In this document: in pieces, positions 19,580-54,572 of the stretch
How the letters are laid out: each line of letters opens with the position of its first letter
How positions within the stretch are numbered: position 1 is the first letter of the stretch
Origin: Eledone cirrhosa
Taxonomy: Eukaryota
Direction of reading: 5' to 3'
DNA: 64,000 nucleotides
NCBI GenBank assembly: GCA_964016885.1
Contig: OZ024743.1
Location: 328,724,001 to 328,788,000 of the forward strand
Position numbers and translations under genes: made by a program
The notes under the pieces: generated by a model
Seen by the model: only the letters and a program-made list of their open reading frames with translations
Database searches by the model: none
Told to the model about the DNA's origin: nothing

Positions 19580-19741
19580 ATAGGAAAATGTATGACCCCG
19601 ACGGCAGAGCTCAAGCCGTTTCGACGGCTTGAGCTCTGCCGTCGGGGTCATACATTTTCTTATTACCCACTCTACTACCCTAAGTATTGAGTACTCTGGT
19701 GCGTTATGGTCCATCTGGTTCCTTACCACAATTCCTTCAGT
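19580..19741 (+). mobile_element. TA-anchored fold-back element, family P1 (probable Penelope pLTR derivative)
   Basis: Perfect 36-bp hairpin arms around ttcg, then a conserved 80-bp tail; 8 family members in this window. Confidence 0.75.
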
Positions 19742-19802
19742 ATGTATGTGTATATATATATATACATACATACATACATACATACATATATATATATGCA
19801 TT

Positions 19803-20795
19803 ATCGACCAACAGAAAATCTCTTTAACATTTCAACGATTCCTTGCTGTATTAAAAACATATATTGCACTGATACGTGATCTTCTTCAGGCAGACAACTG
19901 TGATCTTGTCATCTACACGAAAGAAGACCTTTAGCTTCTGATGGATTGCCTCTTGGCAGCGTGTGATGAGTTAGGGCTGACAAACAGCCTGAAAAATACA
20001 GTGGCGATGTCATCCATATCTGTCAAGGGCAACATATTGAAGGTTGGAGATAAGTTCGTCTCCCTGGGTAGTGCTCTCTTCAGAACCAGTAACCTTGATG
20101 AAGAAGTAAGTCATTGGCCATTTAAAGCTTTCAATGCTTTTGGTTAGCTGAAGGCGCATGGCTTAGTGGTTAGAGCATTGGGCTTGCAATCGAAAGGTTG
20201 CGAGTTCAATTCTCGGACCGGGTGATGTGTTGTTTCCTTGAGCAAGACACTTTATTTCACGTTGCTCCAGTTTACTCAGCTGTAGAAATGAGATGATAGG
20301 ACTGGGGTCCCTATCATTAAGTCACCCAAGACACCTCTAACGGGATATACCTTGGAGGAGGTCAGCTAAACCTGCATAGGTGTGAGCTGTCACACACACA
20401 CACACACACACACACACATCTGTGGTCACAGTCAGATATGAGTGTGTACGAAAGTTGAAGTGTATTAAGCATGTATAGATGTGAGACATGGACAACATAC
20501 TGTGGACATATCCAGCACCTCGAATGTTTCCACCAAAAATGCTCCACCCTCAAGATCTCATACACCAGACACTGATGTACTACAGTGGGCCTGACCGCCA
20601 AGCATCGAGACTATGATAATGAAATAGTGTCTACGGTGGTCAAGTAATACATGAGGAAGCCTAGAGGACTGCAGGCTCCCTAAACAAGTATTTTATGGAG
20701 AACAATTGCAAGCAAACGCTTGCAGTGCAAGCCACACAAGTGCTTTTAAGTCTGCTTGAAAGATACCCCATCAACACGGGAACATGGGAAAATCT
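19803..20795 (+). mobile_element. RTE (BovB-like) LINE RT/C-terminal remnant interrupted by a SINE
   Basis: IRDLLQADNCDLV...EDL*LLMDCLLAACDELGLTNSLKNT...DKFVSLGS...KAFNAFG, then YRCETWTTY..HIQHLECFHQKC and DCRLPKQVFYGE; stops and frameshifts. Confidence 0.85.
20149..20295 (+). mobile_element. tRNA-SINE family B (CORE-like) inserted in the RTE
   Basis: A box tggcttagtgg, B box gagttcaattc, ccttgagcaagacacttt core. Confidence 0.85.
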
Positions 20796-22511
20796 AGTAT
20801 ATATATAAACACACACACACACACACATATATATATATTATATATATATATATATATATAAAATAATAAAGTCAAATATTTAAAATTTGGCTTCGTTTAT
20901 TAAAGATGTACTGCTATATATATATATATATATATATATATATATATATATATATAGAGAGAGAGAGAGAGAGAGAGTGGAACCCACTTCTCAGAACAAA
21001 GATAAGAGAAGCAGACATTGACAAAAACATGTTATTATTGTTGCTATTGTTGATGTCGCCTTAGATTGCTTATTAAGTCAGAAAGTGACTTATGTGTCAT
21101 ACTACACAGTGTTCAGGTAATTTTCCCGGATGTTTCAGTTTGATTGGTGTGGCATGCTTTGTGGTGCCGTGTTAGCCAATCTTCAGAGTGACACACTTTG
21201 GTAAAGATGCCACATGTACAATCAAGGTGTATGATGTACTCAAAGGTATTTTTTCCATGACTATGACGTACATTGAACGTCAATACTCATCTTTTTCCAT
21301 TTCTTAGAGAGTTCTAAACCCCACTATCAGGCTAAAATGTCTTTAGTCAAAAAAATACGGCGAAAGTTTATATATATATATATATATATATATATAGAGA
21401 GAGAGAGAGAGAAAATAGTGATAGAGTGAAGAATAACATGGTCGGCTGTACAAAAAGGGTTTTATTTACAGTATTAACAACTGTTTCATTGATCAGGTGA
21501 GTCTAAAGGCCGCTAATCACTCGAAATTGCGTCACTCGACCTTAAATACAGTTAAATACGTTAAAACTATCCATAGTACAGAGTACTCCCAACCTCTAAC
21601 TGGATTACCTAAAACGATAACTTGTTACCCCATATATATATATGTGTGTGTGTGTGTGTGTGTATTAAATGATTTATATATGTTCATACACGGAACAAAA
21701 AGGCAACTCAAGAATACAAGAGGCATCAAATTTGTGACCCCTCTTCAGGCGCTTATACGAAAAAGTTCACAAATTTGATGTGTCTTGTATTCCGGAGGTA
21801 TATCCAATATTGGGCCTTGAAACCTTGGGTAGTGTTTTTGTTCTGTGTATCATAAAGAAATATTTCTGCTCTCTTCCAGATAAAATAGTTTTACTTTTTA
21901 CTTTTCACATATACAATTATACTTAGATTCTCTCTTTCACTTTCACACACACACAAGTGCACCCCCCTCCTACACACACATTGCTATATTACTCTACTTC
22001 CGCCAGTGATGCTTCCTTTGAGACACAATAGGTAGTACATCCTGCTCCCACACCGAAATCCTTTTATTCCTGTTTTATATTTTATGTTTTAAATTTGACA
22101 AATGGTTCAGTGAGAAGAGTTAATGTAACAATTGTGAAACCTGTCCCTACGTGACTGATGGCAGGAAGCCAACCTAGTTCTCTTCCTAGTGGAGACAAGA
22201 ACCTAATGCTTGGTAACCGAATACATGGATTTTCCCGACCCCTTTCATTGCCGTCGAGAACTCTGGTGCTCCCCACCGTCCCTAGACTGACAAAGAGGAG
22301 CAGACGACCTCTGGTGTTCCCCTCGGTCTCCGGACAGCTATACAGAGGAGCGGAAGACCTCCGATGACCTCGATGTCCGGACTGCCGCTTCCCACCGCAA
22401 AATCTGGAGGTGCATCTCACACGAGGAAAGAGCCTCGATGTATGAAATGTTTGATGCAGAAGGTGTGTTGAGTGAAGAGTTACACACACACACCCATATA
22501 TATATATATAT

Positions 22512-22653
22512 ATGAATAAATTTAGTCCTTCATCAGTGATCTTCCAGTCTTCATTGGTATTTCATCGCTTTAAAGACCATATACCTCTGGTTGGTGCGAG
22601 GAACGGATAAAGAAAGTCGTTGGGACACGTAAGTAGGGGGAACGAGCGAGACA
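22512..22653 (-). mobile_element. TA-anchored element family P2 fragment
   Basis: Matches the arms of 46903-47365; minus strand carries CTGATGA-aggac. Confidence 0.7.
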
Positions 22654-22717
22654 GATATATATATATATATATATATATATATATATATATATATATAGGA
22701 CAGGATTGACTGGTAGC

Positions 22718-51947: not shown

Positions 51948-52187
51948 AAATTGATGTCTGACATACCTCAACTATGCTGATGGCTCAATTCCAGTCTTGG
52001 TATATATATATATATATATATATATATATAAACAGGCGAAACTCCAGAGTAACAAAATGAATATTACAACTCTATTGCGGTATTGAGTACTCTTTATATA
52101 TATATATATATATATATATATATATATATATATATATATAGAGAGAGAGAGAGAGAGAGAGAGAGAGAGTATGTATGTGTGTGTGTT

Positions 52188-52510
52188 TGAAGGTGCGTAG
52201 CTTAGTGCTTAGGGTATTCGGCTTACGATTGTAAAGTCTTGAGTTCGATACTCGGCAGCGTGTTGTGTCCTTGAACAAGACACCTTATTTCACGTTGCTC
52301 TAGTCCACTCAACTGGCAAAATTGAAGAAAAACCTGTCAGATGTAATTCAAGGGATCAGCCTTGTCACACGCTGAGTCTCCCTGAGATTTATGTTAATGG
52401 TATGCGAATCTGTGAAATGCTCAGCAATTTCAGATTAATATCACAGGCTGGCTGTTCCATTGATCAGACAATTGGAATAAGCATCGTCGAAATCAACGGA
52501 GGTCCAACAC
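52188..52510 (+). mobile_element. Near full-length SINE family B
   Basis: tagcttagtgc A box, gagttcgatac B box, ccttgaacaagacacc core. Confidence 0.85.
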
Positions 52511-53316
52511 ACACATACTGACATATGTAAGAAGCTGGTGGCTTACTCGGTTGCAACGCAGGAGCTTTCGCTATGCAAGAGCGCCCACATGACAAAAGGA
52601 CCACATGTAGCGATAGCCAGAATAATCAGCGTCTTAGAAATACCACATGTATTGAGTCCTCCTTTAGTTTGTGCACCAAGCACACACTCATATATATATA
52701 TATAATAGTAATGGGTTTAATCGAAGTTGCAGCTACAAGTAGCGCATCTCCCTTACCATCCTCCAGGGAAACACCTTCTCCATTCTGTCCGCCGGGGCTA
52801 TGGGGAGGCCAGCACGTGGGTGCCCCATTTGCTCACCATACGGAGAGATGGGGAGGGCCAGAGAGATGGAGGCGATGACAGAGGGAGTTCGACTGACTGA
52901 TTCCTGTAGCATTCATTTGCCGTTGTCACATTATATCATATCCCCTTATGTCCCTTCCAATATAGAAAATTGTTGAAGGTATTTATAAATTTAAGAGAGT
53001 TAAAAAAACAAATATTTACACATTAGAACGCATTGTCCTCAGTAGCAGACTAGCCTCGACCTTCGAAGACTGTCACAAAGCACTTGATGACAGAGTAATT
53101 AATACATTTCTCCTCAGAGTGAACACAAGAAGCTAGGTAATAGTGACACAAAGAATAATGTGAACAGAGGCATGTTGCCACATTAAAACTACAACAACGA
53201 AAATACAGACAGGTTAAAACGAACTGGACCTGATCGATAGATATTAATCGATAATATGTATATATATATACATATATAAATGGCGTAGACATTACAATAC
53301 AACGGGAAGAAACATA

Positions 53317-53550
53317 ATAGTACCAGTGATGATGTCACAGGTGTGTGACGAAAGAACTTTGATAGACTATATATATATTTATATCTGTATTTTTAACCGT
53401 TGGTCAATCAATGAGAAAAATTGATTGCCAGATAAATTAACTATGGAGATATAAAAGATAGAGAAGCAAAAAGCAATCCAAACCAAACAGTGAGTGTGTT
53501 TTATTATTTCTGGCAATATAACAATATGACCCTCCCTAAATATAACAATA
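53317..53550 (+). mobile_element. TA-anchored element related to 2515-2710, with a decayed hammerhead (C3>G)
   Basis: gTGATGA-t-gtcaca(ggtg)tgtgac-GAAA-gaac-TT; 3' end atgaccctccc.aa.tataacaat. Confidence 0.6.
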
Positions 53551-54404
53551 CACACACACATATATATATACATATTATATATAGTTATAAATAGATATAT
53601 GTAAAAAGCTGCAGGGTATTAACCTCTTTAGTGCTACTGACACAATACAATGCACTTAGTATATTCTGTAAAGTGATTAGTGCTTGGAAGACCAACTAAC
53701 TGCAGAAAACACACCCAAGACGGTGGGGAAGGGGGCTTAAGTTGTGTCAAGGACATGACAACCTCTCTAAAATTGGTACCACGATAAAATGTACTCAATA
53801 CACTCTGTAAAGTGTAGGAACGCTCGTAAGCAAGGCGGCGGCCCCGGGCTCGTCAGATTGATTGCTGACTTGGACTGGGACGATCCGTCCAAACTATCAT
53901 GGCATTCACGACTTGCCAAACCCATGCTAAAATTGACGTTATATAATTGGATTAATCTCTGGTGATAATAGTTTGTTATATATACAGAGTCTGCGGTGCT
54001 GAGACAGGAGATCACTAATCATGGGAGTACTCAATATATGGGGAGTTGCAGATAGGGTATGACTATACCCTTGAAAAATTGTTGCTGAACACACAAACTG
54101 AAACCGCTTGGTGCCGCGGACGGGATCTTACATCTCTCTCTCTCTCTCTCTCTCTCTCTCTCTCTCTCTCTCTCTCTCTCTCTCTCTCTCTATATATATA
54201 TATATATATATATATATATATATATATATCTCACTCTCTCTCTCTCTATATATATATATATATATATATATATAATTATGTAATAAACAACATAAGACAA
54301 TTATTCCATTTACCAAATGTTTCACGAAGACAGACGAGCTCAACAGAGACGCCTGAAATCGCTCATGAAAACCATATCAGAATACATCAGAATACATATA
54401 TATA

Positions 54405-54572
54405 GCAGATAGGGTGTGGTAAAAACCAGGTGGACCATAACCCAGCAGAGTACTCGATATTTGGAGTAGTAGAGTGGGTAATATGAAAAGATTCAGGACT
54501 CCGACTGCTGAGCTCCAGCCTGTTCGACAGCTAGTTCGGAGTTCAGCCGTCGGGATCCTGAATCTTTTCATA
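54405..54572 (-). mobile_element. Diverged family P1 fold-back element
   Basis: atgaaaagattcagga...tcctgaatcttttcat arms plus a homologous tail. Confidence 0.7.

What the first reader, a model, noticed from the sequence alone, without database searches (positions are those of the whole stretch)
19580..54572. P1 family: fold-back palindromes built on a half-hammerhead, with a fixed outer end and variable turning point
Seen: 8 copies (19580, 29213, 40168, 41035, 46163, 46560, 51637, 54405) in TA-rich tracts. The family sequence contains gtc-GAAAC-ggc(ttgagctct)gcc-GTC-gggg, i.e. the 3' core, stem III and GUC site of a hammerhead, but the CTGANGA half is replaced by an inverted copy. The inverted arm always stops at cctat/catat against the TA flank, while the loop varies from 4 to about 25 nt. 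Copy-specific variants are mirrored in both arms (aaaatgtatg at 19580; aacgagtagg at 29213). Inference: the palindrome is made anew at each insertion by fold-back or second priming on TA microhomology, or homogenised afterwards. Established: inverted 5' pLTR segments are typical of Penelope insertions.
Basis: partly seen in the sequence, partly recalled or inferred. Interest (0 to 1): 0.75.

Follow-up and report, generated by a model that had tools for sequence, protein, structure and literature searches.

The report
Penelope palindromes end at RNA cap
These small mirror-image inserts are cut-short ends of an abundant Penelope-like jumping gene, and their joints suggest that each half was likely copied separately from the element's RNA up to its capped start and then glued to the other half, which would explain the missing half-ribozyme and bears on an open question about how these elements copy themselves.

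Summary
The repeats are real: 7 of 8 copies are head-to-head palindromes in (TA)n; 46163 has one arm only. P1 is the pseudo-LTR end of a protein-coding Hydra-clade Penelope-like element (at least 24,058 exact tail/TA junctions genome-wide). Parents carry the whole hammerhead, with core YUGANAA (U3-A8 or C3-A8) and a long stem II. Fold-back is not supported: either arm can be the longer one, and 7 of 74 pairs share no sequence. 'Copy-specific' variants are subfamily haplotypes. The turning point is mostly not variable: 60 of 92 and 36 of 72 arm ends pile up 34-47 nt before the ribozyme cut site, at TT|AGTCC. Where both arms stop at that A, the next base on the cDNA strand is a C that the parent lacks (86 of 100 ends; control one base earlier 17 of 100), as expected from copying an mRNA cap. 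Best reading: two target-primed cDNAs start at two fixed sites, run off the capped 5' end of the RNA inside the ribozyme's stem II, and are end-joined. No RNA data were available to confirm the start. This scan reported the same cap/run-off idea before for other Penelope families, in this and other genomes; I reached it before seeing those notes.

The parts
19580..19738 (+). Head-to-head stub: inverted short-end arm 19580-19629 (to -30) + tailed arm 19624-19738 (from -20); 6-nt microhomology ACGGCT inside the ribozyme
29212..29456 (+). Head-to-head stub: inverted arm 29212-29282 (to about -50) + tailed arm 29287-29456 (from about -74, internal deletion); commonest subfamily
40168..40344 (-). 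Head-to-head stub: tailed arm 40287-40168 starting at the modal site -41 preceded by G (G also explicable by the partner arm), short-end arm 40288-40344; deletion in tail
41035..41197 (-). Head-to-head stub with the same junction as 19580; tailed arm 41153-41035, short-end arm 41148-41197
46162..46293 (+). Single tailed arm from about -30, no inverted arm; older subfamily
46560..46714 (+). Stub with 17-nt inverted short-end arm (46560-46576) and tailed arm 46583-46714 from about -41, internal deletion over the cut site
51637..51826 (+). Head-to-head stub: inverted arm 51637-51687 (to -31) + tailed arm 51686-51826 (from -41/-42); ribozyme cut site between 51727 and 51728; arms identical over 46 nt
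54405..54572 (-). Older, diverged head-to-head stub; tailed arm 54537-54405, short-end arm to 54572

Best explanation
The P1 copies are 5'-truncated, mostly head-to-head insertions of a Hydra-clade Penelope-like retrotransposon into (TA)n, and each palindrome was likely made by two separate target-primed cDNAs that ran off the likely capped 5' end of the element's RNA and were then end-joined. Coordinates: +1 = first base after the hammerhead GUC. Shown: parent with RT + C-terminal GIY-YIG ORF and complete hammerhead; two fixed 3' ends at +20 and about +99, both ending in TAT against TA; arms of one insertion share a subfamily; 5' ends pile up at -34..-47; an extra C follows the -41 end on the cDNA strand. 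Inferred: the endonuclease nicks both strands of (TA)n; each 3'-ATA end primes on a UAU (+20, +99) in the 5' pseudo-LTR copy of the same RNA or of RNAs from one source locus; transcription starts at A(-41) in TT-A-GTC, 31 nt after a TATT(C/T)A(A/T) stretch; RT copies the cap G as C, often miscopies the first base and adds further bases; the two cDNA ends are trimmed and joined with 0-2 nt microhomology or short insertions. As -41 lies inside stem II, stubs lack the 5' ribozyme core and the upstream promoter part, and are predicted to be dead.
For: Parent ORFs continue from P1 downstream and lead into it upstream; Hydra motifs RWR, DKT, CxCx5C, CxxC..E..N..CxH (versus passages and Hydra-1_Obim). 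Whole hammerhead in 46 long copies, core at -86; MFE gives the three-way hammerhead fold for 2 of 3 copies folded. Ends: 60 of 92 short-end arms and 36 of 72 tailed arms stop at -34..-47; 11 and 7 pass -60. Genome-wide 10,886 arms start at -41 behind a non-T and 7,365 at -40 behind a non-A, against 275 and 90 matches for junctions near the ribozyme cut (other patterns, so only a rough contrast). Extra base, hand-counted: both arms ending at -41, first 50 of 295 loci: C in 86 of 100 ends; 25 of 38 after dropping the 31 loci whose insert could be templated (p 5e-5). Control, both arms ending at -40, first 50 of 96 loci: first base C in 17 of 100 but second base (the same position -42) C in 63 of 100, mostly GGAC-GC-GTCC. 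In TA-flanked single arms G precedes C|GTCC in 22 of 44 loci. All but 3 of 46 long parents have TTTAG here and none has G at -42. Arm direction: 37 short-arm-longer, 26 long-arm-longer, 11 equal of 74; 7 share no sequence; 31 of 74 have inserted bases, 33 have 0-2 nt overlap. Subfamily concordance 78 of 79 versus 28% expected. Untemplated 5' G as a cap mark is described for L1/SVA (PMC4859970, passages); internal RT starts at two sites and cleavage plus extension of both strands were shown in vitro for an anole PLE (PMC11167929).
Against: No RNA evidence for the start or the cap. The simplest single-arm test was uninformative: G:C before AGTCC next to ATATAT was 25:5 at -41 and 12:3 at -40, both equal to the flank background 4.9:1. 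Over all junction types G precedes AGTCC in only 43 of 100 (C 47, A 10), because partner arms and a TCAGTC subfamily supply many of these bases. Half is one junction (C-A/T-G) that could partly be templated, and self-complementary ends are favoured in joining. The pile-up is 14 nt wide; G before the longer A(T)n starts was seen in only 5 of 47. Poly-A/T stutters at this spot (L094, L113, L198, L204) also fit RT slipping on a U tract. Exceptions to the short+long rule exist (L117 short+short, L130 long+long). Samples come from the first about 50 Mb of one contig for the arm statistics.
Confidence: 0.66

Rival explanations
1. Same twin priming and end joining, but the pile-up is an RT stall or RNA cut at the U-rich apical loop of stem II (or a re-cut by the element's endonuclease at the TA step -42/-41), and the extra C/GC are context-dependent terminal additions, not a cap.
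For: The barrier coincides with the 3' edge of the predicted apical hairpin and with a U tract; stutter products exist; the loop is hypervariable among parents.
Against: The subfamily with only three U at the site stops at the same place; C tracks position -42 whether base -41 is T, G, A or C; a DNA cut would not explain a position-fixed extra C.
Confidence: 0.2
2. Fold-back or self-priming (the first reader's first option; self-priming on an antisense template was proposed in PMC3846280): one strand turns on itself and copies itself, giving the inverted arm.
For: Some junctions use internal inverted microhomology with a 4-nt loop (19580, 41035, L154); arms share subfamily.
Against: 37 of 74 short arms hold sequence absent from the long arm, 7 share nothing; both arms carry the same extra base at the same site, as if each copied a sense RNA to its end; kb-long arms have the same two 3' ends.
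Confidence: 0.08
3. The 190-210-bp palindromes are a self-propagating non-autonomous family (MITE- or retrozyme-like), or arms were homogenised after insertion.
For: Very high copy number, narrow size class, a few junctions recur.
Against: Recurrent junctions occur in several subfamilies while most junctions differ; mirrored private changes 5 versus 94 one-arm; stubs lack ribozyme core and upstream promoter part; no terminal inverted repeat at both outer ends because of the one-sided tail.
Confidence: 0.06

Closest known systems
Hydra clade of C-terminal-endonuclease Penelope-like elements, e.g. Hydra-1_Obim (Craig et al. 2021, PMC8557442; passages and supplement rows seen)
   Same: RT + C-terminal GIY-YIG, RW(K/R), DKT, CxCx5C linker, CxxC and CxH around E/N, (TA)n targets, hammerhead in pLTR, inverted 5'-truncated copy, one-sided tail; N-terminus clearly alike by eye to Hydra-1_Obim.
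   Different: A separate family; unit about 3.56 kb (paper: generally under 3 kb); tail about 79 nt rather than 30-40; ribozyme core U3-A8/C3-A8 with a 56-nt stem II region; most copies are 120-250-bp stubs ending at one site.
Poseidon_Ac of Anolis (Frangieh et al. 2024, PMC11167929; first two of four parts read)
   Same: Two internal RT start sites define the tail; both target strands cut and extended; AT-rich target; uncut RNA is the template.
   Different: That work did not address inversions, 5' ends or the cap; its ORF starts in the ribozyme, here ATG lies at about +191.
L1 twin priming and untemplated 5' G of full-length L1/SVA (PMC4859970, passages; Ostertag and Kazazian 2001 recalled)
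   Same: Two primers from the target, inversion joined with small indels, cap copied as extra G.
   Different: L1's two cDNAs cover non-overlapping RNA; here both usually cover the same 60 nt and both reach the 5' end, giving a true palindrome.
PLE hammerheads incl. the U3-A8 variant of Schistosoma Cercyon (Cervera and de la Pena 2014, PMC4209133; abstract and Results read)
   Same: Type I motif in pLTR, U3-A8 core covariation, extra unpaired base at the start of helix II, motifs 100-700 bp apart on opposite strands.
   Different: Helix III is 5 bp with a 9-nt loop and helix II is very long; 30 of 46 sampled long copies read C3-A8, a mismatch.

Membership tests
EN+ Penelope-like element | Single ORF with PLE-type RT and GIY-YIG endonuclease linked to the repeat | tested here: met
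   L031, L030, L032, L036 translations; 2,534 homologues at E<=1e-20 among 7,992 scored, none informatively named; Pfam-A gave 0 hits for 6 fragments, so domains are read from motifs
EN+ Penelope-like element | Partial tandem (pLTR), adjacent inverted 5'-truncated copy, one-sided tail | tested here: met
   L031, L034, L036, L050 self-comparisons; ends at +20 and +99
Hydra clade | C-terminal EN; RWK and DKT motifs | tested here: met
   RWR and SDKTG in L032/L036
Hydra clade | CxCx5C linker; CxxC and CxH flanking E and N; no CCHH | tested here: met
   CxCx5C in 8 of 13 copies read, F for the last C in 5; CNLC..E..N..CKH in L031; absence of CCHH judged by eye only
Hydra clade | (TA)n insertion preference | tested here: met
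Hydra clade | Placement in the Hydra clade on an RT tree | not tested
   reference sequences could only be viewed in the supplement
Type I hammerhead ribozyme | Core CUGANGA...GAAA...UH with helices I-III | tested here: inconclusive
   Parents: helices and GAAA/GUC present, core U3-A8 in 15, C3-A8 in 30, U3-G8 in 1 of 46 (sample biased to one subfamily); window copies lack the 5' core; Rfam gave no hammerhead among the 150 of 178 window hits shown
Type I hammerhead ribozyme | Self-cleavage | not testable with these tools
   no pile-up of ends at the cut site seen
MITE | Terminal inverted repeats at both outer ends, fixed structure, DNA-transposase parent | tested here: not met
   one-sided tail, variable junctions, RT parent
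Non-LTR retrozyme | Non-coding monomer bounded by complete hammerheads, tandem arrays | tested here: not met
   stubs hold half a ribozyme and derive from an ORF-bearing unit

The most novel reading that the evidence does not exclude
Penelope-like elements have a strong-stop step: RT primes twice, on both target strands, near the 5' end of a capped sense RNA whose start lies inside the ribozyme, copies each time through the cap, and the two cDNAs are end-joined. Head-to-head pLTR palindromes would then be double run-off products, not fold-backs or antisense self-priming, and the stubs would map the element's promoter at single-base resolution from DNA alone, including a miscopied first base that may record a cap-adjacent modification.
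Probability: 0.55. Interest if true: 0.72.

Novelty: new member of a known kind. Interest (0 to 1): 0.5.

Why it matters
How Penelope-like elements build their tandem and inverted ends is stated as open in PMC8557442, PMC3846280 and PMC11167929 (passages read). This family gives more than 10,000 natural junctions with sharp, testable predictions: start at A(-41), extra C from the cap on both arms, priming at +20 and +99. If true it removes the need for an antisense template and explains half-ribozyme palindromes as dead by-products. The element and the palindromic build themselves are of a known kind.

Tried and rejected
DNA-similarity search of the own genome returned nothing (common words skipped), so patterns were used. 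Rfam: only microsatellite-driven miRNA hits below gathering scores and one partial tRNA. Pfam-A: 0 hits for six ORF fragments. No RNA holder listed; contigs of two unlabelled runs were laid and show the same loose ends at +20 and +99, but cannot show starts or levels. Single-arm G:C test equal to background. Idea that ribozyme cleavage sets the 5' ends: no dominant end at +1 (by eye; 3 of 74 at -1). Idea that subfamilies with the C3-A8 mismatch yield more long arms: not seen, 5 of 48 versus 6 of 44 in the others. Splice acceptor or trans-spliced leader at TTTAG: rejected, no constant sequence upstream of the G. Paper searches for prior description of this step (Penelope with twin priming; non-templated G with cap; Penelope-like with strong-stop/run-off/cap/pLTR) listed no paper that describes it for PLEs, judged from listings and the passages read; subscription papers (Arkhipova 2006, Pyatkov 2004) and bioRxiv supplements were not seen. 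PMC13000458 (passages) was not relevant.
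Full report
Observation. The eight copies lie where stated, in (TA)n tracts of a microsatellite-rich animal genome of 3.0 Gb. Seven are head-to-head: an inverted arm ending at CCTAT/CATAT and a direct arm that runs on through a tail of about 79 nt to CGTTAT; 46163 has only the direct arm. 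All lack the 5' hammerhead core. Coordinates below count from the ribozyme cut (+1 = first base after GUC). In 400 kb of unselected stretches only about 13 further copies were seen, so the window is enriched, but the family is large: 11,861 exact short-end and 24,058 exact long-end TA junctions, reversed-pattern controls 0.

Parent. A pattern reaching upstream found 100 longer arms. Their loci show P1 running straight into an ORF (ATG at about +191) and standing again behind its end, with a unit of about 3.56 kb in L031. [quoted passage not shown] No tree was built. In 46 long copies the missing ribozyme half is present at -86 as CCCC-YUGANAA: U3-A8 in 15, a covariant already reported for Schistosoma PLEs (PMC4209133, Results), C3-A8 in 30, U3-G8 in 1. 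Two U3 copies fold as a hammerhead three-way junction (z about -1.9), one C3 copy with a changed stem I does not.

How the palindrome forms. I parsed 92 elements anchored on the short end (from loci of the first 90 of 11,861 matches) and 72 anchored on the long end (first about 70 of 24,058), all on one contig. Of the 92, 74 had a simple two-arm junction; 18 were dropped (no tail found, long or complex). The short arm reached further 5' in 37, the long arm in 26, equal in 11; in 7 the arms share no sequence. A strand folding back on itself cannot give an arm that holds sequence absent from its template, so fold-back is not the general route. Junctions have 0-2 nt overlap in 33 and inserted bases in 31 of 74, some inserts copied from nearby sequence, as in end joining (likeness to polymerase-theta joining is recalled, not tested). 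Arms share their subfamily haplotype in 78 of 79 pairs (28% expected at random), yet within a subfamily they are about as different as arms of separate copies, and private changes are mirrored 5 times against 94 one-sided.

The turning point. 60 of 92 short arms and 36 of 72 long arms end at -34..-47; only 11 and 7 pass -60. Single-arm copies end there too. Genome-wide, 10,886 arms begin at A(-41) of TT|AGTCC behind a non-T base and 7,365 at -40 behind a non-A; junctions near the ribozyme cut number 275 and 90 with their own patterns. I noted that -41 might be the capped RNA start (TT-A-GTC resembles an initiator, consensus recalled) and tested the predicted extra base. With both arms ending at -41 and 2-5 bases between, the first extra cDNA base is C in 86 of 100 ends (first 50 of 295 loci, hand count), 25 of 38 after dropping 31 loci with possibly templated inserts. 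With both arms ending at -40 the first base is C in 17 of 100 but the second, again position -42, in 63 of 100 (first 50 of 96 loci). The C therefore follows the position, not the end, and base -41 is often miscopied. Parents have no G at -42. An untemplated G at full-length 5' ends is taken as a copy of the cap in L1 and SVA (PMC4859970, passages). A TATT(C/T)A(A/T) stretch starts 31 nt upstream (I looked for it after note e1-8620836). Against: the direct TA-flank test matched background, pooled junctions show G in only 43 of 100, the peak is broad, stutter products fit a U-tract stall, and no RNA run was listed.

Mechanism. Shown: parent, two 3' ends, independent arm lengths, common source, pile-up, extra C. 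Established elsewhere: an anole PLE cuts and extends both target strands and starts RT at two internal sites that define the tail, on uncut RNA (PMC11167929); the D. virilis promoter lies in the pLTR with initiator and downstream element (PMC2377424, passages). Inferred: both nicked TA strands prime at +20 and +99 of the 5' pLTR copy, RT runs off the cap 61 and 140 nt later, and the two cDNAs are trimmed and joined; priming at the 3' pLTR copy gives the rarer long arms. The start lies inside stem II, so stubs lack the ribozyme's 5' core and the upstream promoter part. This differs from self-priming on an antisense template, proposed for the same head-to-head structures (PMC3846280, passages). 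Confidence 0.66; PLE identity about 0.97.

Novelty. The element is a new Hydra family and the build is known. Three paper searches listed no description of cap run-off or twin priming for PLEs; key subscription papers were not seen, and the 2026 retrozyme preprint was read only as passages. Unreviewed notes of this scan give the same reading for other families; they are not independent support. The value lies in the size of the sample and the position-specific control. Interest 0.5.

Noticed in passing
window 43790-43860 (+), 55650-55725 (+), 37270-37360 (-): Three minimal hammerhead-like motifs (CTGANGA-hairpin-GAAA-TATATA/TGTGTA-stem I) of other repeat families, probably other Penelope-type pLTRs.
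   Followed up: no
window 20159-20260 (+); also L045 about 5490: tRNA-like head (Rfam tRNA, partial, 31 bits) followed by a conserved body: likely a tRNA-derived SINE; a copy interrupts a P1 arm in L045.
   Followed up: no
L031, L003, L006 and others, ribozyme core at -86: The commonest subfamily mostly reads C3-A8, a core mismatch, while others keep U3-A8 with N7 varying (G/A/C); the ribozyme may have been lost in an expanding lineage. Sample biased.
   Followed up: partly
parent copies, -45 to -57: The apical loop of stem II is hypervariable, with AACATT/AATGTT micro-inversions between copies.
   Followed up: no
L005 about 1300-1800; L050 5600-5940; L117; L130: Arrays of stubs inserted into each other's TA tracts; rare short+short (L117) and long+long (L130) palindromes.
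   Followed up: no
L047 415-4434; L042 948-1847; L046 5959-6732; L087: Other Penelope-like RT families lie next to P1 copies, including a large inverted pair in L047.
   Followed up: no
window 45500-46060: A short unit ending in TA tracts repeated in tandem and inverted (I8-I24), another TA-targeting repeat.
   Followed up: no
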